A stretch of DNA of 64,000 nucleotides, taken from contig JAQVIY010000001.1 in assembly GCA_028695415.1 (NCBI GenBank), forward strand, positions 113,067 through 177,066, read 5' to 3'. The DNA is from Minisyncoccota bacterium (GTDB taxonomy: Bacteria > Patescibacteriota > Minisyncoccia > Phycocordibacterales > Phycocordibacteraceae). The notes under the pieces are model-generated. The model did not search any database, was not told where the DNA came from, and was given only the letters and a program-made list of their open reading frames with translations. A program made the position numbers and the translations under genes. This document shows, one piece after another, positions 19,354 to 58,414 of this stretch. Position 1 is the first letter of the stretch, and every line of letters starts with the position of its first letter.

Positions 19354-19467
19354 GCCCCTGGCGCCCGCGTTGGGCGACATGAAAGGCCATCAATGGCGCG
19401 ACTGGTAACCACCCCGGCCGCGCCATCTTCATTTTGCATACGAAAACGAGAAGGGTATAGTGAAGGA

Positions 19468-20559
19468 ATGGCAGCAAAAGATTATTACGCGACGCTCGGC
19501 GTCGATAAGAAGGCGACCCAGGACGACATCAAGAAGGCGTTCCGGAAGCTCGCGCACAAATATCATCCTGACAAGGGTCATGCCGACGAATCAAAATTCA
19601 AAGAAATAACCGAAGCATACGCCATCTTAGGCAACGACAAGAAACGCCGCGAGTATGACACGTATGGTCAAGCATTCCCGGGTGGAGCGAACGCGGGTGG
19701 AGCGGGACAAGGCAACCCCTTTGCCGGGTTCGACTTCTCCCAATTCCAGCAAGGATTTGGAAACGGCGATATCGAGTTTGATCTGGGCGATATGTTCGGT
19801 GGCATGTTCGGCGGCGGGCGACAGGCGCGCACTCCACGCGGACGCGACATCTCTATCGACCTTGAAGTCCCATTTCAAGATGCCGTATTCGGCACAACGC
19901 GCGATGTCCTCATTGGTAAGATTTCAACCTGTGACACCTGTAAGGGGAGCGGCGCGAAACCGAACACCGAGATAACGACCTGTACGACCTGTAACGGGAG
20001 CGGCAAGATACACGAGACGCGCAATTCAATACTCGGACAGTTCAGCACCGTGCGTCCCTGTGTCGACTGCGAAGGTACCGGAAAGGTGCCAAAAGAGAAG
20101 TGCGAGGCGTGCAAGGGGCACGGCGTACGACGCAAGGAAAACAACATCCATATCGAGGTCCCCGCCGGCATAGATAACGGCGAAATGATCCGTCTGCCGC
20201 AACAGGGAGAAGCTATCAAGACCGGCGTCGCAGGCGATTTGTATGTAAAAGTGCACGTGAAGCCGCACCCGGTCTTCCGGCGCGAGGGATCAAATCTCGT
20301 CATGGATCTGCCGGTGAAGCTTACCGACGCGCTCCTCGGCACGACGGTCCCTGTCGCGACTCTGGAAGGGAAGACGCTCGAAGTGAAAATCCCCATAATG
20401 AAGCGTGCTGAGGAGTTGCTCCGCGTCGCCGGCAAGGGAATCCCTGTCAGCGGCACTCACCGCGGCGATCTCATCATCCGTCTCGAAGTCGCGCTTCCGC
20501 ACAAGCTCTCGGGTAAGGCCAAGAAATCTGTGGAAGATCTTAAGACGGAAGGCCTGTAG
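19468..20559 (+). CDS. dnaJ: chaperone DnaJ
   Basis: J-domain with HPD (KYHPDK), Gly/Phe-rich region and four CxxCxGxG zinc-finger repeats. Confidence 0.95.
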   Translation: MAAKDYYATLGVDKKATQDDIKKAFRKLAHKYHPDKGHADESKFKEITEAYAILGNDKKRREYDTYGQAFPGGANAGGAGQGNPFAGFDFSQFQQGFGNGDIEFDLGDMFGGMFGGGRQARTPRGRDISIDLEVPFQDAVFGTTRDVLIGKISTCDTCKGSGAKPNTEITTCTTCNGSGKIHETRNSILGQFSTVRPCVDCEGTGKVPKEKCEACKGHGVRRKENNIHIEVPAGIDNGEMIRLPQQGEAIKTGVAGDLYVKVHVKPHPVFRREGSNLVMDLPVKLTDALLGTTVPVATLEGKTLEVKIPIMKRAEELLRVAGKGIPVSGTHRGDLIIRLEVALPHKLSGKAKKSVEDLKTEGL

Positions 20560-34867: not shown

Positions 34868-36208
34868 ATGGCCATCGTCACGCGTTTCGCCCCCTCACCG
34901 ACCGGCTATCTCCACGCCGGCAATTATCGTACCGCGGTATTCGCCTATCTCTTTGCGAAACATTCGGGAGGAAGATTCATCGTACGCATAGAAGATACTG
35001 ACGTTGCGCGGAGCAAGCCGGAATACGAAGCGAATATCTTCGAAGCACTTGCCTGGCTCAATCTTCCGGTAGATGAACGTTATCGCCAAAGCGAGCATCG
35101 ACCACGCCATCGCGAACTCCTCGAGAAACTCGTTGCTCTTGGTGCCGCCTACGTGTCTAAAGAAACGCCCGAGAAAGAAGGGGATAGGGAAGAGGTCATC
35201 CGCTTCAGGAACCCCGGCGGAGCAATCACCTTCACCGATATCATCCGCGGCGACATAACGACTGACGTCAATGACCTTGGCGACTTTATTATTGCACGCT
35301 CCTATGATGAGCCGGTCTTTCACTTTGCGGTTGCGGTTGACGACTCAGACGAGGAGGTTACGCACGTCATCCGCGGAGCCGATCATATCTCGAATACCGC
35401 ACGCCAATTGCTTATTCAGCGCGCGCTCGGCTTCCCGACGCCTCTCTATGCGCACTTGCCGCTCATCATGGACAGCTCGCACAAGAAGCTCTCGAAGCGT
35501 TCTGGTGCGAAAGCGCTTACCGAATACCGCGACCTGGGTGTCCTCCCTGAAGCGCTTCTCAACTACCTCTCGTTTCTCGGGTGGAATCCCGGCGACGAGC
35601 GTGAGTATCTTTCAAAAGAAGAGTTGATCGAAGCCTTCGATCTCGTACGCGTGCAAAAGGGGAGTGCGGTCTTCGACGAAGTGAAGCTCTTCTCGGTCAA
35701 TCAGCACTGGATGCGCACGCTCTCTGATGACGAATTCTTCTCGCGCTTGAGCGGACATCTCCCGCCGAACGGCTTTACTCCCGAGAAAATACGAAAAGCC
35801 ATTCCGCTTCTCAAGGAGCGCGCACAGACCTTTGAAGAGGCGCGCGAACTCCTTACTGGCGAACTTTCCTGTCTCTTTGAAGCACCCGAACCGGAGCGGG
35901 AGCGGCTTATCGCTAAAGAGCTCCCCGACTGCCCAGAGATGACTATATCGGCTCTCCAGTGCCTCCTGGGAGCCCTAAAAGCTGTCCCAGAGGGCGCTTC
36001 TGCCGAGGCAGCAAAAGAGGCGCTGATGCCGCTTGCGGACGCCGAGGAGGCAAAACAGAAAGGGGGCAGAGGAGCGGTCCTCTGGCCTCTGCGCTACGCC
36101 CTCTCCGGACAAGATCGTTCTCCTGACCCTTTCACGCTCATCTCGATATTGGGGACCAGCGAATCGCTCGCACGCATAGAAAAGGCTCTTGCTATACTGA
36201 ACAAATGA
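34868..36208 (+). CDS. gltX: glutamyl-tRNA synthetase
   Basis: RFAPSPTGYLHAGN (HIGH region) and KLSKR (KMSKS-type) motifs. Confidence 0.92.
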   Translation: MAIVTRFAPSPTGYLHAGNYRTAVFAYLFAKHSGGRFIVRIEDTDVARSKPEYEANIFEALAWLNLPVDERYRQSEHRPRHRELLEKLVALGAAYVSKETPEKEGDREEVIRFRNPGGAITFTDIIRGDITTDVNDLGDFIIARSYDEPVFHFAVAVDDSDEEVTHVIRGADHISNTARQLLIQRALGFPTPLYAHLPLIMDSSHKKLSKRSGAKALTEYRDLGVLPEALLNYLSFLGWNPGDEREYLSKEELIEAFDLVRVQKGSAVFDEVKLFSVNQHWMRTLSDDEFFSRLSGHLPPNGFTPEKIRKAIPLLKERAQTFEEARELLTGELSCLFEAPEPERERLIAKELPDCPEMTISALQCLLGALKAVPEGASAEAAKEALMPLADAEEAKQKGGRGAVLWPLRYALSGQDRSPDPFTLISILGTSESLARIEKALAILNK

Positions 36209-37536
36209 GTCGGCCACGTTCTGTATTTTTATTTTCGCTGTTCGCTGTCTTCCTTTTTCCTGGTGTCTCATACGCACAAACGGCTGATTCCCTGCAAGCC
36301 CAGATAAACGCGAACAATGTTCAGCTTGATGCCATCAAGGCAGATATCGCCGCCTATCAGAAACAGCTCGATGCGCTTGGCGAGAAGAAGAACACACTTC
36401 AATCAACCGTTAGTTCGCTTACCATCTCACAGAAACAGCTCGCCTCGCAGATACAGCTCACGCAGAGCCAGATAGCTTCGGCGAACCTGCAAATACGGCA
36501 ACTGACGAACTCTATCGGCGACAAGGAGGCTTCCATATCCTCTGATCAGGCGGCTATCTCGAAGGCGCTTCGTGTCGTGGCGGCGGGCGAAGAGCGGCCG
36601 CTTATCACGAGCCTCATATCCTCGGGCTCTCTCGGGGAAGCGTGGCGTCTCGCCGATCAGATGACGCAATTCAATCAGGCTCTCGCAGACAATATCAGCC
36701 ACCTGCGTATCGCGCGGACTCAGCTCACGACAAACCGCGATGCGGTGACGAAAGCGAAAGCAGATCTCGTCGCGCTTCAGAATCAGCTCACGGTGCAGAA
36801 GCGCTCCGTCGATGCAAGTAAGAATGCGCAAACGCAGCTCTTGGCACAGACGAAGAATCAGGAGGCGAACTACCAGAAGCTCCTCGCGCAGAAACAGGCG
36901 GCGGAAAAAGACTTTGAACAGGAGCTTCTCAATCTCCAAGGGCAGCTCAATCTCGTCGTGCATCCGAACCTTCTCCCGAAGGTCGGCTCGGGCGTACTCG
37001 TGTGGCCTATGAGCAATGCCTTTATGTTCAACTGTGCGGCACGCAAAAACGTGTTCGGAAATATCTTCTGCATCACGCAGTACTTCGGCACGACCGCATT
37101 CTCAACCGCCAATGCGCAGGTCTATAATGGTCATGGCCATAATGCCATAGACATAGGCGCACCTATCGGCACGCCGCTCTATGCGGCACTCGACGGCACC
37201 GTGCTCGCGACCGGTAACACCGACCTCGTGCGCGGCTGTTACTCGTTCGGCAAGTGGGTGATGATCACGCACGGCAACGGCCTCTCGACGCTCTATGCGC
37301 ACCTCTCTGAAATAGATGTAGCGAAAGGGCAGTGGGTGAGTACGAAACAGCTCATAGGCCTCTCCGGCATGACTGGGTATGCGACCGGCCCGCATCTCCA
37401 CTTTGGCGTATACGCGACCGAGGGTACGCAGATAATGACCTTGAAGCAATTCCGCAGTACGAACACTTCCTGTGCGAACGCGACGATGCCGGTCGCGACG
37501 CTCTCCGCATACCTGAATCCGTTGTCGTACCTCTGA
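36205..37536 (+). CDS. secreted M23-family metallopeptidase with a long N-terminal coiled coil (EnvC/LytM-like)
   Basis: Signal peptide and coiled coil. C-terminal HGHNAIDIG...GPHLHFG LytM motifs. Confidence 0.85.
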   Translation: MSRPRSVFLFSLFAVFLFPGVSYAQTADSLQAQINANNVQLDAIKADIAAYQKQLDALGEKKNTLQSTVSSLTISQKQLASQIQLTQSQIASANLQIRQLTNSIGDKEASISSDQAAISKALRVVAAGEERPLITSLISSGSLGEAWRLADQMTQFNQALADNISHLRIARTQLTTNRDAVTKAKADLVALQNQLTVQKRSVDASKNAQTQLLAQTKNQEANYQKLLAQKQAAEKDFEQELLNLQGQLNLVVHPNLLPKVGSGVLVWPMSNAFMFNCAARKNVFGNIFCITQYFGTTAFSTANAQVYNGHGHNAIDIGAPIGTPLYAALDGTVLATGNTDLVRGCYSFGKWVMITHGNGLSTLYAHLSEIDVAKGQWVSTKQLIGLSGMTGYATGPHLHFGVYATEGTQIMTLKQFRSTNTSCANATMPVATLSAYLNPLSYL

Positions 37537-37840
37537 TCTCTCTACCCGAATCTCGGCTAGACGTGTTCACGAGGGGAGGGGAGGTATATACTACCTATGT
37601 ATGGGTATCACCCTTCGAACCATCTTCTGGGCTCTCGTTCTTCTCCTCGCCCTGTCATTCTTTGGCATCTCTCTGCAAGCTATAGTGAACTCTCCTGTGG
37701 GCCAAGCAAATATTCATTACGTGAGCGGCCTCCTCTCCGATCTCTGGCTGTGGTGCACCGCGTGGATGAGGCCCCTAATCTAGTTCTAACTGGGATATGT
37801 GCGCAAAAGATATAATGTGCGCACTTCATACGTCTTAGTC

Positions 37841-38320
37841 CTAGATTCTCCCCTTTCGTTTAATACGGTCTGACTGTGCTTTTATATCAGATAACTTTTG
37901 CTCCAAATCTTTATCGAGCGGGCGGCTTTTTCCTGTTATTTCTTTTTGTCTGTGAGCATAGAGCAGTTTTACTGCTTGGCTCCATAACTCAAAGTCTTTC
38001 GCTTTTGTACCAAACAGGTGATTTTTCTCAAAGAAGGGGACTATAACGTCATGCAGCTCGGATGTGTTCTGGACAGAATAACGAACCTGATCCCCTGCTC
38101 TTTTGAAAGATATATTACCTACACTAAATTTGTCTCTAATGAGTTCGAGAAGTCCGGCATCTGATGGATGCAACACAATTGCAAATTCAGTTTTCCAATA
38201 ATGATACTCATACAGTATATTTCCATCATCGTCATATCTTTTATCTGCTCGATAGTTCAGAGCAAAACATCCTTCGCCATCAACAAAACCAGCGACGTAG
38301 CTGTCGTCGAGACCTTTCAT
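37841..38320 (-). CDS. free-standing LAGLIDADG homing endonuclease (single-motif, I-CreI-like size)
   Basis: YVAGFVDGEGCF LAGLIDADG motif near the N-terminus, about 159 aa, sitting in a conspicuously AT-rich islet. Confidence 0.75.
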   Translation of the reverse strand: MKGLDDSYVAGFVDGEGCFALNYRADKRYDDDGNILYEYHYWKTEFAIVLHPSDAGLLELIRDKFSVGNISFKRAGDQVRYSVQNTSELHDVIVPFFEKNHLFGTKAKDFELWSQAVKLLYAHRQKEITGKSRPLDKDLEQKLSDIKAQSDRIKRKGRI

Positions 38321-38582
38321 CTCTTTATTCTAACATTTTGTTGCTAATCCTTTGTGCAAATTGGGTGACCCTGTTGATAAGAAAGCTATTTTTTAAAGAC
38401 GATGACGAGAACGTGTACGAGACTGATAAGCGTGCTCATAAAGCCTGTCCAGAACGCATACACTTGTAAATGAGCTGCTGAAAGTTTCCGGTGCTTCTTC
38501 ATATGTACAAAAGGATACCACGCGAATATTGCTCTCACCGAGCGTATCCACTTCCCTATCCGTTTCTAAAAAATCGACCGTA

Positions 38583-39350
38583 TCAACACGAAACGTTTGT
38601 CGTGATGTAATCGTACGCCTCGTCAACAGAATCGACGACGGTATAGAGATCCATATCGCCCTTATCGATGGCGGCATGACCCTGATAGATAGTCTTTTCG
38701 ATAAAGCCGAGCAAGGGGCCCCAGTAATCCTTGCCGTAGAGAATGATAGGAACCTTGCGTATTTTCTTGGTCTGAACGAGCGTTACTATTTCGAAGAATT
38801 CATCGAGCGTACCGAATCCGCCCGGGAAATAAATATATACTTCGGACGCGTACGTCAGCATCACTTTGCGTACAAAGAAGTGGTCGAACCCGAATCGCTC
38901 GGTAAGGAACGGATTATAGCTCTGAGACTCCGGCAGATTGATATTGAGCCCAACCGAGGCACCGCCGACCTCGAAGGCGCCTTTATTGGCCGCCTGCATG
39001 ATACCTGAGGAGCCGCCAGTGACGATGGCAAAACCTTTTTCTGCGAGACGCTTCGCCAACTCCTCAGCGCGTTCATAGGAGTCGTCGCCTAAGGTCGCGC
39101 GCGACGAGCCGAAGAATGATGCGGCGAGGCCGTGTCGGCGAATAATATCAAACCCTTCGACAAACTCTGACATTATCTTGAAAATGCGCCACGATTCTAT
39201 CTTCCTCGGCTTACAGACGAGCAAAGGCCGATCCTCGGCTTCGGGCATCGTACGCCCGCCTTCGTGAACTACCTGCGCGAGACGTTCGGTTGTCTTATGA
39301 ATACCCGCTGATTGGATAATCGGCTCTTCGCCGGTAATGTCCTCATTCAT
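38583..39350 (-). CDS. LOG-family protein (cytokinin riboside 5'-monophosphate phosphoribohydrolase / TIGR00730)
   Basis: IVTGGSSGIMQAANKGA and PGGFGTLDEFFE motifs. Confidence 0.85.
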   Translation of the reverse strand: MNEDITGEEPIIQSAGIHKTTERLAQVVHEGGRTMPEAEDRPLLVCKPRKIESWRIFKIMSEFVEGFDIIRRHGLAASFFGSSRATLGDDSYERAEELAKRLAEKGFAIVTGGSSGIMQAANKGAFEVGGASVGLNINLPESQSYNPFLTERFGFDHFFVRKVMLTYASEVYIYFPGGFGTLDEFFEIVTLVQTKKIRKVPIILYGKDYWGPLLGFIEKTIYQGHAAIDKGDMDLYTVVDSVDEAYDYITTNVSC

Positions 39351-39399
39351 GCTACGCAGTATATCACTCCTACGCCAAGGCTTCGAAGTGCACAGCAGG

Positions 39400-39582
39400 C
39401 TAGATGCCTTTGCAATTTGTCACCGGAGCATAACTCGTCTCCGGTCCTGCTTCAATTCCCGCTAAAAAGCCAAACCAGAAACTTGCGGACGAAGCGGCGA
39501 AAAGAATGCCGAATATCAGGATATCTCGCGGCACCCGTGCGAGGAGGCTTTTGCATTTTTCGCGCGCTTCTGCTATAGTCAC
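39400..39582 (-). CDS. possible small membrane protein upstream of the LOG gene
   Basis: ORF with one hydrophobic helix (ILIFGILFAASSASFWFGFLAGI). No clear RBS. Confidence 0.25.
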   Translation of the reverse strand: MTIAEAREKCKSLLARVPRDILIFGILFAASSASFWFGFLAGIEAGPETSYAPVTNCKGI

Positions 39583-56959: not shown

Positions 56960-58414
56960 TTAGGATTCTATTTCCTCGATATTCTGCACCACATACTGCT
57001 TATTCTTCTCGATTGTCTCCGCTATTTTCTTCAGCGCAGACTTCATGTCTCGTGCCTCTAGGTCGGTTATAGCATCGCCATTATACTTCACTAAGAGGCT
57101 GTCTACCTCTTTTTTTATTATACCAAATGCCGTCTGGATGTCGCGCTGGGCAACCACGATCCGGCGGCGGCGTTGTTCTCGCTCCTTTTTGCCGATATAC
57201 CAGCCGAACGCGCCTCCTGCGAGGAGCGCAAGAATAAGGCTTATAAAGAATGAGGTTCGAGTGATGCCGACACCCGCGATAGTGATGAGCGGTATCTCAG
57301 AAATATCGAGTATTACTCGGCTCTCGGCTGTATTTCCCGCCCTATCAACCGCTTGTACGACGAGGCTATGTTTCCCCGCCTGCTGCGGAGGAAGCGTGTA
57401 TTTCGCGAGCATCGTGGTAGTCGAGAGCGTCCCGTCGAGCATAATCTTGTAATCGAGAATACCGGAAGGCTGATCATTGGTTCCGAACGCGATGGTCGGA
57501 GCGACATTTGCGGTCGTAAGTCCGTCGGGCGATGTCACGGTAAAACTAAGCGGCGGCGCGCTATCAATGCCGATGCGGTAATGCACGGTAGGGCCCCAGC
57601 CGACAGAATCTTTGAAGCGCACGTGCAGGTACCATATGCCGTCGGTAAGCGGACTGAACGTCTTATTATTGAAAAGCCCTTCAGAGGCAGTTGGGTCAAA
57701 CGTCGGCTGTTGATTGACCGCCGTAGCCACGTCGGTCACCTCTCGCGGCAAATCCCACTGAACGATGAACTTGGTAACGTCCGCATACCATGCGGACGAG
57801 TCGGGATAGAGCGGCACCGTGAGCACTGGTTTCGTCGGAAGACCCGTTGCGGTTACCGCCGTTCGAGTTATCTGAGATGGTGCGATAACTGCGGCGGTTT
57901 GCGAAGCGCTGCTCGTAAGCTGGAGACCGTTCATCGCCGTCAAAACGTTCGTACCGCTCCCATCACTTGCCGTCACCGCACCATCAGAGAAAATGATGCT
58001 GACCGCACCAGTACCCTTTACTTTGAAGGCTATACGGAGCACTTCGAGCGCCTTGCCGGATATGCCGCTTTGGCTCCCGCCGATAAAGGTCACCTGCCCC
58101 GCGTCATTTGAGAATGACGGCCCTTGAAGCCAGAAATCAAATGCCGACGTGCTTTTATCAAGACTGGTCACCTGCACGGTGTCTTTAGGGAACGTAATCG
58201 TCGCTTGCGCGGCGTTCACACCGACATCGGTGCTATCTATCTTTACATCTACCGTGAACGTATTCCCGACCGAGAACGTCTCTTTATCGGCAGTGAGGTT
58301 ATATGATGCGGCGCGCGCGGAGTACGGCGCGCCAAATACGAAGAAGAGCATCGCTATGCTTGAAAGCACTACGGCACGCTTCGTTACTGTCATTCTTGAA
58401 GTATACACCGTCAT
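56960..58414 (-). CDS. cell-surface anchoring protein: signal peptide, cohesin-like domain, C-terminal TM helix and a cytoplasmic coiled-coil tail
   Basis: The region after the signal peptide (ASYNLTADKETFSVGNTFTVDVKIDS...GQVTFIGGSQSGISGKALEVLRIAFKVKGTGAVSIIF) has the cohesin beta-sandwich pattern. TM helix FFISLILALLAGGAFGWYIG near the C-terminus. Confidence 0.6.
   Translation of the reverse strand: MTVYTSRMTVTKRAVVLSSIAMLFFVFGAPYSARAASYNLTADKETFSVGNTFTVDVKIDSTDVGVNAAQATITFPKDTVQVTSLDKSTSAFDFWLQGPSFSNDAGQVTFIGGSQSGISGKALEVLRIAFKVKGTGAVSIIFSDGAVTASDGSGTNVLTAMNGLQLTSSASQTAAVIAPSQITRTAVTATGLPTKPVLTVPLYPDSSAWYADVTKFIVQWDLPREVTDVATAVNQQPTFDPTASEGLFNNKTFSPLTDGIWYLHVRFKDSVGWGPTVHYRIGIDSAPPLSFTVTSPDGLTTANVAPTIAFGTNDQPSGILDYKIMLDGTLSTTTMLAKYTLPPQQAGKHSLVVQAVDRAGNTAESRVILDISEIPLITIAGVGITRTSFFISLILALLAGGAFGWYIGKKEREQRRRRIVVAQRDIQTAFGIIKKEVDSLLVKYNGDAITDLEARDMKSALKKIAETIEKNKQYVVQNIEEIES

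What the first reader, a model, noticed from the sequence alone, without database searches (positions are those of the whole stretch)
37790..38480. Free-standing LAGLIDADG homing endonuclease in an AT-rich islet
A 159-aa single-motif LAGLIDADG endonuclease (YVAGFVDGEGCF) lies on the minus strand in a short stretch of markedly lower G+C. It sits between an M23 peptidase gene and the LOG gene. No interrupted host gene, intron or intein is visible around it, so it appears to be a stand-alone mobile endonuclease gene inserted in an intergenic region. The 3' flank carries a direct repeat of the self-complementary octamer gtgcgcac (atgtgcgcaaaagatataatgtgcgcac).
Basis: partly seen in the sequence, partly recalled or inferred. 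Interest (0 to 1): 0.6.

Follow-up and report, generated by a model that had tools for sequence, protein, structure and literature searches.

The report
Homing endonuclease beside a dif-like site
A small, selfish DNA-cutting enzyme gene sits on its own, in no intron or intein, right next to a deeply conserved 26-bp palindrome that looks like the chromosome's dimer-resolution (dif/Xer) site, and that palindrome is probably what the enzyme cuts in relatives lacking the gene.

Summary
Window 37841-38320 (-) encodes a 159-aa single-domain LAGLIDADG endonuclease in a low-GC patch, with no intron, intein or split host gene.

Comparison with 80 syntenic genomes of related Patescibacteria (Kaiserbacteria-like) shows an insertion of about 500-560 bp. 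It is present at this locus in 1 of 42 species and leaves no remnants elsewhere. The gene is under strong purifying selection (dN/dS 0.05-0.10) and has foreign codon composition. The "stand-alone mobile endonuclease" reading is therefore supported.

The quoted 3' repeat is not an insertion scar. It is a 26-bp pseudo-palindrome, GTGCGCAAAAGATATAATGTGCGCAC, conserved in single copy in 54 endonuclease-free loci.
- It has the 11-6-11 layout of dif and matches E. coli dif at 18/26 positions.
- It coincides with the GC-skew peak in seven distant genomes.
- It lies next to Xer-like recombinase genes or inovirus-like DNA in others.

Every endonuclease homologue examined ends 11-29 bp from this site (218 bp in one lineage). 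All carry one allele (..TATAAT..), whereas 0 of 52 genomes with the common allele (..TATATT..) carry the gene.

Best model: a homodimeric free-standing homing endonuclease that targets the dif-like site. Cleavage was not tested.

The parts
37841..38320 (-). Free-standing single-domain LAGLIDADG homing endonuclease gene (159 aa)
   Evidence: ORF. Pfam LAGLIDADG_1 E 5.2e-20. PDB sequence hits to I-OnuI-family domains at E 1e-22 and to single-domain I-TnaI. AF2 pLDDT 90.5 with alpha-beta-beta-alpha-beta-beta-alpha core. dN/dS 0.05-0.10.
38327..38335 (-). Conserved TGTTAGAAT (extended -10-like) 6 nt before the ATG; suggests own promoter and a near-leaderless mRNA
   Evidence: Conserved TAGAAT 6-8 nt upstream of the start codon in window, L001, L002, L118, L010, L008 and L121. 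The simple sigma-70 scan does not call it because there is no -35. This is inference.
38347..38360 (-). Arm-like half-site TTTGCACAAAGGAT at -38 from the start codon
   Evidence: Matches the site arm plus centre TGCGCAAAAGAT at 10/12 in five endonuclease-positive loci. The distant loci carry GTCGCACAAAG (L007, L010) or its inverse (L008, L121).
37799..37824 (.). 26-bp pseudo-palindrome GTGCGCAAAAGATATAATGTGCGCAC: conserved dif-like (Xer-type) site and proposed endonuclease target; the window carries the endonuclease-linked allele (A at 37815)
   Evidence: Conserved in 61 non-redundant loci, one copy each. Outer arm positions co-vary. 18/26 match to E. coli dif in the 11-6-11 register, reached by 0 of 20000 shuffles. 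GC-skew peak at the site in 7 genomes. Xer-like genes and Zot phage DNA adjacent in others.
37826..38385 (-). Maximal extent of the inserted cassette relative to empty sites (half-site, -10, endonuclease ORF)
   Evidence: blastn flanks against L012. The last ~6 codons of the ORF overlap a G-rich element also present before the site in endonuclease-free loci, so the true indel is nearer 37863-38361.
38386..38538 (-). sORF50: small conserved hydrophobic protein gene between LOG and the endonuclease (host gene, left flank of the insert)
   Evidence: The C-terminal YAFWTGFMSTLISL is conserved in L012 15373-15579 and in L001-L003. It is absent in L118.
37601..37783 (+). sORF60: small conserved membrane-like protein gene, convergent with the endonuclease (host gene, right flank)
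   Evidence: tblastn 46-84% identity in about 35 syntenic loci.

Best explanation
Window 37841-38320 (-) is a free-standing, mobile LAGLIDADG homing endonuclease gene. It forms a minimal cassette of about 0.5 kb: an arm-like half-site, a TAGAAT -10 element and the ORF. The cassette lies in the spacer between two convergent small genes, 16 bp from a deeply conserved 26-28 bp pseudo-palindrome that is most likely the dif/Xer-type recombination site of these Patescibacteria.

Proposed mechanism:
1. The one-domain protein dimerises and recognises the near-palindromic site in its common form (...GATATATTG...).
2. It makes a double-strand break there in chromosomes that lack the gene.
3. Repair from a chromosome that carries the gene copies the cassette together with the adjacent site allele (...GATATAATG...).
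4. That allele protects the carrier from self-cleavage.
5. Later loss of the gene leaves 'empty but resistant' alleles.

Shown here: gene identity and fold; an intact, invariant acidic residue in the LAGLIDADG motif; free-standing status; insertion boundaries; patchy distribution; purifying selection; foreign composition; constant linkage to the site; the allele association; and the dif-like features of the site.

Inferred only: dimerisation, cleavage of this site, resistance of the linked allele, homing by gene conversion, and Xer action at the site.
For: **Identity.** Pfam E 5e-20 with one domain. PDB hits to I-OnuI-family domains and to single-domain I-TnaI. The AF2 model has pLDDT 90.5 with the canonical core. 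GFVDGEGCF and the beta-strand residues (R24, D26, Y39, Y41, W42, E45, Q78, R80, S82, Q84, K106) are invariant in 23 homologues down to 49% identity.

**Free-standing.** No Rfam hit. An empty site exists in L012.

**Patchy.** The gene is present in 1 of 42 syntenic species and leaves no remnants elsewhere. Carriers are scattered on the LOG tree.

**Functional and foreign.**
- dN/dS is 0.05-0.10.
- GC3 is 0.22-0.49 in hosts with locus GC of 0.39-0.60.
- Endonuclease dS is 0.6-1.0, against LOG dS of 1.4-2.3 for the same genome pairs.
- Nucleotide identity is 82-91% for the endonuclease and 70-85% for LOG, and similarity stops at the site.

**Linkage to the site.** In window, L001, L002, L003, L007, L010, L095, L113 and L118 the stop codon is 11-40 bp from the site, always in the same orientation. 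The distance is 218 bp in L008. This holds even though all other neighbours differ. Broader homologues (L121, L124) also have arm-like CGCACA(T/A)T just 3' of the gene.

**Allele association.** All 7 non-redundant endonuclease-positive loci carry ATT, against 2 of 54 endonuclease-negative loci (Fisher p = 8e-8). Three further positive metagenome loci also carry ATT. Endonuclease-negative ATT loci cluster near the positive clade.

**The site is dif-like.**
- It has an 11-6-11 layout and matches E. coli dif at 18/26, reached by 0 of 20000 shuffles (dif sequence and criteria from PMC3025954 and PMC5357621).
- The cumulative GC-skew maximum lies within 18-67 bp of the site in 7 of 47 loci, against 0.77 expected, always with the same polarity.
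- A full-length XerC/D-like gene starts about 28 bp from a variant site in L028, with similar arrangements in L024, L060 and L062. A Xer-like gene lies 464 bp from the site in L127.
- Zot-encoding, inovirus-like viral contigs carry the site near one end.
Against: - No biochemical evidence exists that the protein cuts anything.
- The ATT allele is not exclusive to carriers: 23 of 29 metagenome loci with ATT lack the gene, many of them in other lineages. ATT may therefore be only a permissive background or a hitch-hiking marker.
- The endonuclease-positive chromosome keeps an otherwise intact site. Immunity would rest on a single base at +4 from the dyad centre.
- The best-conserved 7-bp arms lie at +/-7 to +/-13, partly outside the +/-11 footprint known for I-CreI (my recollection, not tested).
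- In the window's own clade the site is not at a GC-skew switch. The window's skew maximum is at 20418, 17 kb away.
- Endonuclease amino-acid identity tracks that of its neighbours, so much of the history could be vertical descent with loss.
- The dS contrast may be inflated by the very different codon composition.
Confidence: 0.55

Rival explanations
1. Domesticated LAGLIDADG protein: a sequence-specific DNA-binding factor or nickase retained for a host function at the dif-like site, for example as a Xer accessory factor or a regulator. It would not be a selfish homing enzyme.
For: - Purifying selection is as strong as on the housekeeping LOG gene.
- DNA-contact strands are invariant.
- Position and orientation beside the site are fixed across lineages down to 52% identity.
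- An arm-like half-site lies in the gene's own upstream region, suggestive of autoregulation.
- Endonuclease identity tracks that of neighbouring genes.
Against: - The gene is present in 1 of 42 related species at this locus and leaves no remnants elsewhere.
- GC3 is far below the host's in every carrier.
- The endonuclease is less diverged than the adjacent LOG gene.
- The metal-binding acidic residue is retained.
Confidence: 0.15
2. Mini integrative element that uses Xer (IMEX or dif-module-like). The 0.5-kb cassette would be moved by the host's Xer recombinase acting at the dif-like site. The endonuclease would be cargo whose target, if any, lies elsewhere.
For: - The cassette abuts the site exactly.
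- An arm-like sequence lies at the other end of the cassette.
- DNA on both sides of the site is highly variable between relatives, with intervals from 76 bp to 5.9 kb.
- Inovirus-like contigs and recombinase genes occupy the same slot in other genomes.
- In some loci a second, split, inverted pseudo-site lies next to the site.
Against: - The upstream element is only about 11-12 bp. What follows it shows no similarity to a central region plus second arm, so it is not a complete recombination site.
- Its orientation differs between lineages: direct in L007 and L010, inverted in L008 and L121.
- An endonuclease with invariant DNA-contact residues next to an invariant 20-bp palindrome is more simply explained as enzyme and target.
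Confidence: 0.15
3. Remnant of an intron- or intein-borne endonuclease whose host element has decayed, or an annotation artefact.
For: CPR bacteria are rich in rRNA introns that encode single-domain LAGLIDADG enzymes (PMC11270868).
Against: - No group I or II intron signal at E<=1.
- The flanks are intergenic and alignable to empty sites.
- There is no in-frame host protein.
- All 10 subfamily members whose context was examined, plus two broader homologues, are free-standing.
Confidence: 0.02

Closest known systems
Single-domain, homodimeric LAGLIDADG homing endonucleases (I-CreI type; I-TnaI, PDB 5gkk; CPR rRNA-intron enzyme I-ShaI, PMC11270868)
   Same: One LAGLIDADG_1 domain of about 160 aa with the same core fold and an acidic residue at the end of the motif helix. 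A homodimer acting on a pseudo-palindromic site of about 22 bp is expected. The host clade (CPR/Patescibacteria) is known to be rich in such enzymes.
   Different: The gene is not inside a group I intron of an rRNA gene or in any intron or intein. It has its own promoter-like element and sits in an intergenic spacer. The presumed target is a non-coding recombination-type site, not a gene.
Free-standing homing endonucleases with 'intronless homing' (phage T4 Seg/Mob enzymes, cyanophage F-CphI; recalled from memory, not tested here)
   Same: A stand-alone endonuclease gene with presence/absence polymorphism at a fixed locus. The presumed target lies next to the gene in genomes that lack it. A sequence difference in the carrier's copy of the target correlates with presence. 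Flanking DNA appears to be co-inherited.
   Different: Those enzymes are GIY-YIG or HNH types in phage genomes and target protein-coding genes. This one is a LAGLIDADG enzyme in a bacterial chromosome, next to a dif-like palindrome.
dif / Xer chromosome dimer-resolution sites and the elements that exploit them (IMEXs such as CTXphi; IS1202-family insertion sequences that insert 5 bp from dif or pdif, PMC10132070)
   Same: The neighbouring site has 11-bp arms with partial dyad symmetry and a 6-bp centre. It matches E. coli dif at 18/26 and lies at or near skew shift-points. It is adjacent to Xer-like genes and filamentous-phage-like DNA in some genomes. Like IS1202-type elements, the endonuclease cassette sits a fixed short distance from the site in one orientation.
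   Different: Both arms resemble the XerC-type arm, so the site is nearly palindromic, as in single-recombinase systems. The canonical XerD arm TTATGTTAAAT is absent. The exploiting element encodes a homing endonuclease, not a transposase or a phage genome, and lacks a second complete site.

Membership tests
LAGLIDADG homing endonuclease, single-domain (homodimeric) class | LAGLIDADG_1 domain, one copy per chain | tested here: met
   Pfam PF00961 E 5.2e-20, one stretch covering residues 10-117. Each PDB two-domain enzyme matches the query twice, once per domain.
LAGLIDADG homing endonuclease, single-domain (homodimeric) class | alpha-beta-beta-alpha-beta-beta-alpha core fold | tested here: met
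   AF2 pLDDT 90.5 with elements H6-16, E17-29, E35-50, H52-65, E69-72, E79-83, H86-99. Foldseek E 1.6e-10 to I-OnuI variants and 2.5e-10 to I-TnaI.
LAGLIDADG homing endonuclease, single-domain (homodimeric) class | Conserved acidic metal-binding residue at the C-terminal end of the LAGLIDADG helix | tested here: met
   VAGFVDGEG: E16 is invariant in 23 homologues, and K106 is also invariant. The catalytic role is inferred from the family, not assayed.
LAGLIDADG homing endonuclease, single-domain (homodimeric) class | Dimerisation and site-specific double-strand cleavage leaving 4-nt 3' overhangs | not testable with these tools
   Needs purified protein and substrates carrying window 37790-37835 in both alleles.
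Intron- or intein-encoded homing endonuclease | ORF embedded in a self-splicing intron or in frame within a host protein | tested here: not met
   No Rfam family at E<=1 in 36500-39500. The ORF has its own ATG and stop, and its flanks align to an intergenic empty site.
Free-standing mobile homing endonuclease | Sporadic presence at one homologous locus among close relatives, with definable empty sites | tested here: met
   Present in 1 of 42 syntenic species with no remnants. Empty site in L012. Carriers are scattered on the LOG tree.
Free-standing mobile homing endonuclease | Recognition site close to the gene in genomes lacking it; carrier protected by a variant site; co-conversion of flanks | tested here: inconclusive
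   All endonuclease-positive loci have the ATT allele, and 0 of 52 AAT loci have the gene. Endonuclease-negative ATT loci are common. The endonuclease block is more similar between genomes than LOG. Cleavage was not tested.
dif / Xer recombination site (for the 26-28 bp palindrome) | About 28 bp: two 11-bp arms with partial dyad symmetry around a 6-8 bp centre, similar to known dif | tested here: met
   11 of 13 dyad pairs are complementary in the consensus, including the two variable pairs of the outer three, which co-vary. 18/26 identical to E. coli dif in register, reached by 0 of 20000 shuffles. Definitions from PMC5357621 and PMC3025954. By the criterion of Kono et al. (positions 7-12 against 17-22) only 4 of 6 pairs match, which is at or just below their threshold.
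dif / Xer recombination site (for the 26-28 bp palindrome) | Located at or near the terminus-type GC-skew shift point | tested here: inconclusive
   Within 18-67 bp of the cumulative-skew maximum in 7 of 47 loci, against 0.77 expected. In the window and its clade the maximum is 7-17 kb away. That is roughly 1-2.5% of a genome of <1 Mb (an assumed size), against a reported spread of 0-1.39% with outliers <=3%.
dif / Xer recombination site (for the 26-28 bp palindrome) | Single copy per chromosome | tested here: inconclusive
   One copy in the 64-kb window and one per 12-21 kb locus. Whole genomes were not available.
dif / Xer recombination site (for the 26-28 bp palindrome) | Bound and recombined by Xer-family tyrosine recombinase; exploited by integrative elements | not testable with these tools
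   Indirect only. An XerC/D-like gene (E 4.8e-69) starts about 28 bp from a variant site in L028, with similar arrangements in L024, L060 and L062. A Xer-like gene lies beside the site in L127, and Zot-encoding viral contigs carry the site near one end.
IMEX / dif module | Element bounded by two complete dif-like sites | tested here: not met
   Only an 11-12 bp arm-like sequence lies upstream of the endonuclease. No second full site within 6 mismatches was found in any endonuclease-positive locus.

The most novel reading that the evidence does not exclude
A lineage of free-standing LAGLIDADG homing endonucleases in Patescibacteria has specialised on the chromosome dimer-resolution site itself. 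It cuts the common dif allele, and copies itself together with a one-base resistant dif allele into the adjacent spacer. dif, already known as a landing pad for Xer-exploiting phages and insertion sequences, would then also be the target of a homing endonuclease gene drive in bacteria with very small genomes.
Probability: 0.4. Interest if true: 0.8.

Novelty: new variant of a known kind. Interest (0 to 1): 0.62.

Why it matters
Homing endonucleases survive by targeting sequences their hosts cannot afford to change. Known targets are almost all inside essential genes such as rRNA, polymerase and photosystem genes, and the endonuclease gene is sheltered in an intron or intein. Here the gene is naked, and its constant partner is a non-coding palindrome of about 26 bp, conserved across what looks like a class-level clade, with the hallmarks of dif.

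If the enzyme cuts that site, three things follow:
- It would be a bacterial chromosomal example of intronless homing aimed at a recombination site.
- It would provide a natural meganuclease with a defined, nearly palindromic target.
- It would flag the previously undescribed dif/Xer site of Kaiserbacteria-like CPR bacteria, which is useful for locating the terminus and checking assemblies of these uncultured genomes.

If it does not cut the site, the finding is still a clean, well-bounded case of a free-standing LAGLIDADG gene with presence/absence polymorphism.

Tried and rejected
- **Group I/II intron or other RNA around the gene.** Rfam at E<=1 found nothing. Rejected.
- **'Universal, vertically inherited gene'.** The first three homologues were all at the same locus with neighbour-like divergence. 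This was rejected once 80 neighbour-anchored loci showed 1 carrier in 42.
- **The repeat as a target-site duplication or a REP-like genome-wide repeat.** The 9-mer is not enriched in the window, and the sequence is present in endonuclease-free relatives. Rejected.
- **The palindrome as an intrinsic terminator.** It has no T-run. The loop sequence is conserved across lineages, which is not expected of terminators. The scan calls nothing there. Rejected.
- **The palindrome as a promoter or operator.** It lies between two convergent stop codons in 76-90 bp spacers and has no -35. Unlikely.
- **'AGGGGAG' before the site in L012 as a relic of the endonuclease's 3' end.** The same G-rich element precedes the site in many AAT, endonuclease-free loci. 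It is therefore host sequence into which the ORF reads.
- **ATT allele as diagnostic of the endonuclease.** The metagenome scan shows most ATT sites lack the gene. Only the converse holds.
- **GC-skew switch at the site in the window itself.** Not found; the maximum is at 20418.
- **A Xer gene inside the window.** Ten ORFs were screened with Pfam and none is a tyrosine recombinase. The screen was not exhaustive.
- **Contact-residue versus site co-variation in broader homologues.** Too few contexts to judge.
Full report
**1. The observation**

The minus-strand ORF at 37841-38320 encodes 159 aa beginning MKGLDDSYVAGFVDGEGCF. It matches Pfam LAGLIDADG_1 at E 5.2e-20 with one domain. It also matches each half of the two-domain I-OnuI-family meganucleases in the PDB (E down to 1e-22) and the single-domain I-TnaI.

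An AlphaFold model built on 23 homologues has pLDDT 90.5 and the canonical alpha-beta-beta-alpha-beta-beta-alpha core, followed by further helices. Its best structural matches are LAGLIDADG enzymes.

G+C drops to 0.37-0.44 over the gene, against about 0.55 around it. Rfam finds nothing at E<=1 in 36500-39500.

The quoted 3' string is exactly window 37797-37824. It contains an exact 9-mer repeat (ATGTGCGCA, 18 bp apart), but only one full copy of the octamer GTGCGCAC.

**2. Is it a resident or an insert?**

The nearest protein homologues (89, 74 and 69% identity) lie at the same locus, and their divergence resembles that of their neighbours. At first this looked like vertical inheritance.

I therefore fetched relatives independently of the endonuclease, using a murG alignment against one genome per species. 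This gave 80 syntenic loci from Kaiserbacteria/Paceibacteria-type MAGs. Of the 42 that contain the whole M23..LOG interval, only one (L023, the genome of homologue P0005) has the gene. A profile search of all six frames finds no remnants in the others.

The endonuclease-free relative L012 aligns to window 37789-37828 (92.5%) and to 38388-38460. The two segments are 43 bp apart in L012 and 559 bp apart in the window. The insert is therefore at most 37826-38385. Its last few codons read into a G-rich host element, so the true indel is nearer 37863-38361.

**3. Is the gene alive and foreign?**

- Pairwise dN/dS among close copies is 0.05-0.10, like the housekeeping LOG gene.
- GFVDGEGCF, K106 and the residues of the DNA-contacting strands are invariant down to 49% identity.
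- GC3 of the endonuclease is 0.36 in the window against 0.62 for LOG. It is well below the host's in every carrier.
- For the same genome pairs, the endonuclease is less diverged than LOG. dS is 0.6-1.0 against 1.4-2.3, and nucleotide identity is 82-91% against 70-85%. The codon-composition difference may exaggerate the dS contrast.
- On a LOG tree the carriers fall in at least four separate places.

**4. The flanking 'repeat' is a conserved host site**

GTGCGCAAAAGATATAATGTGCGCAC (window 37799-37824) is present once in nearly every related locus. Its 20-bp core CGCACA(A/T)TATATCTTTTGCG is almost invariant across 61 non-redundant loci, including lineages whose murG is only 52% identical.

The outer three base pairs of the arms vary but stay complementary: 129 of 183 cells, against 75 +/- 6 in shuffles.

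In many genomes the site is essentially the whole 76-90 bp spacer between two convergent stop codons. The DNA on either side is highly variable, with intervals from 76 bp to 5.9 kb. The site's orientation relative to murG..LOG flips between close relatives.

**5. What the site probably is**

Written as 11-6-11, it matches E. coli dif (GGTGCGCATAA-TGTATA-TTATGTTAAAT; sequence in PMC3025954) at 18 of 26 positions in register. None of 20000 shuffles reaches this. Both arms resemble the XerC-type arm.

Evidence on position:
- In seven loci from more distant lineages (L007, L079, L080, L083, L087, L088, L107) the cumulative GC-skew maximum of the 12-21 kb held lies 18-67 bp from the site, always with the same polarity. 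Chance predicts 0.77 such loci out of 47.
- In the window's own clade this is not so. The skew has the same sign on both sides of the site, and the terminus-type maximum is 7-17 kb away (window: 20418). That is about 1-2.5% of a genome of <1 Mb (an assumed size). It is at the edge of the published spread between dif and the shift point.

Evidence from neighbours:
- In L024, L028, L060 and L062 the same slot holds a variant site (CGCACAATATATGTAAAACG). In L028 a full-length XerC/D-like recombinase gene (NCBIfam XerC E 4.8e-69) starts about 28 bp from it.
- A viral contig has a Xer-like gene 464 bp from the site. Two Zot-encoding, inovirus-like contigs carry the site 240-290 bp from one end. Filamentous phages are the classic Xer-exploiting integrative elements.

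I rate 'Xer/dif-type site' at about 0.75.

**6. The endonuclease is tied to the site, not to its gene neighbours**

In ten non-redundant contexts (window, L001, L002, L003, L007, L008, L010, L095, L113, L118) the gene points at the site. Its stop codon is 11-40 bp away (218 bp in L008), although the other neighbours differ completely in L007, L008 and L010.

Upstream, every copy has TAGAAT 6-8 nt before the start codon. Each also has an arm-like 11-12-mer: TTTGCACAAAGGAT in the window's clade, and GTCGCACAAAG or its inverse elsewhere. More distant homologues (P0025, P0047) are also free-standing and have arm-like sequence just 3' of the gene.

**7. Allele association**

All seven non-redundant endonuclease-positive loci in the first data set carry ...CACATTATATC... 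(that is, GATATAATG on the window's plus strand). Fifty-two of the 54 endonuclease-free loci carry ...CACAATATATC... (Fisher p = 8e-8, not corrected for phylogeny). Sister lineages of the distant carriers have the common allele.

A metagenome scan for the rarer allele returned 29 loci. Six have the gene and 23 do not. So the allele is necessary but not sufficient. Within the window's clade, about half of ATT loci carry the gene and none of the AAT loci do. Empty ATT loci sit next to the endonuclease-positive clade on the LOG tree.

The variable base is four positions from the dyad centre. In the common allele it is part of the symmetry (11 of 13 pairs); in the carrier allele it breaks it.

**8. 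Model**

A one-domain LAGLIDADG protein must dimerise, and then prefers a pseudo-palindrome of about 22 bp. The only invariant palindrome next to all copies of this gene is the dif-like site.

I propose the enzyme cuts the common allele. Repair then copies the cassette plus the adjacent one-base variant, which protects carriers. Loss of the gene leaves resistant empties, as in a homing cycle. The upstream half-site could allow autoregulation.

None of the biochemical steps is shown. The rivals are a domesticated site-binding factor, or a Xer-mobilised mini-element whose endonuclease acts elsewhere. They are not excluded and are scored separately.

**9. Novelty**

Free-standing LAGLIDADG genes are annotated in CPR genomes, and CPR rRNA-intron LAGLIDADG enzymes have been characterised (PMC11270868). 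The gene itself is therefore a new member of a known kind.

I found no paper linking a homing endonuclease gene to dif; six papers co-mention the terms and none is on this topic. I also found none describing dif in Patescibacteria. The endonuclease-dif association, if real, is a new variant of free-standing homing.

Noticed in passing
window 34868-36208 (gltX) and loci L012-L091: The gltX gene next to murG is bimodal among otherwise close relatives. One type is about 446 aa and 70-81% identical to the window's. The other is about 481 aa and only 43-49% identical, while murG stays at 75-80%. This suggests replacement of gltX by a distant homologue in some lineages.
   Followed up: no
window 37537-37600; L001 2943-3569; L002 6801-7421; L012 14309-14932: Many relatives carry an HhH-GPD DNA glycosylase gene between sORF60 and the M23 peptidase gene. 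The window lacks it and has only a 64-bp spacer.
   Followed up: partly
L028 13979-14992; also L024, L060, L062: In four related genomes the slot next to LOG holds a variant site, CGCACAATATATGTAAAACG, instead of the usual palindrome. In L028 a full-length XerC/D-like recombinase gene starts about 28 bp away, an arrangement resembling a xerS-difSL-type module.
   Followed up: partly
L128 274-293 and L130 238-257 (IMG/VR contigs); L127 3340-3359: Two viral contigs of about 5-6 kb encode a Zot-like (filamentous phage) ATPase and carry the conserved site close to one end. A third has a Xer-like recombinase 464 bp from the site. These may be Xer-exploiting integrative elements of Patescibacteria.
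   Followed up: partly
L012 15213-15300; also L003, L095, L105, L113, L117 just beyond the site: About 15 bp beyond the site lies a second, inverted copy with a longer, different centre (GTGCGCAAAAGAT-agtcgc-GATTGTGCGAA). In L012 it forms a 20-bp perfect hairpin with the site's arm. It is seen only in ATT-allele loci, with or without the endonuclease, and is absent from the window.
   Followed up: no
L028 17807-18410: Four tandem units of 201 bp lie between the L27 and L9 genes. Each contains an arm-like CGCAAAAGAT followed by ATTATTGTA-like sequence.
   Followed up: no
20-45 nt before the site in many loci (e.g. L021, L033, L040, L054); window 37851-37862: G-rich runs resembling GGGNAGGG (the FtsK-orienting KOPS consensus quoted in PMC5357621) precede the site in many endonuclease-free loci. 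The endonuclease's C-terminal K-G-R codons overlap this element. Polarity on the other side was not examined.
   Followed up: no
window 20418 and 57217: The cumulative GC skew of the window peaks at 20418, inside the dnaJ gene (19393-20559). It bottoms at 57217, so a 37-kb block including the dcw cluster and the endonuclease locus has negative skew on the plus strand, whatever the gene orientation.
   Followed up: partly
window 37601-37783 and 38386-38538: Two small hydrophobic ORFs (60 and 50 aa) are conserved at the protein level in many relatives but have no Pfam match. sORF50 is missing in some genomes (L045, L047, L118).
   Followed up: partly
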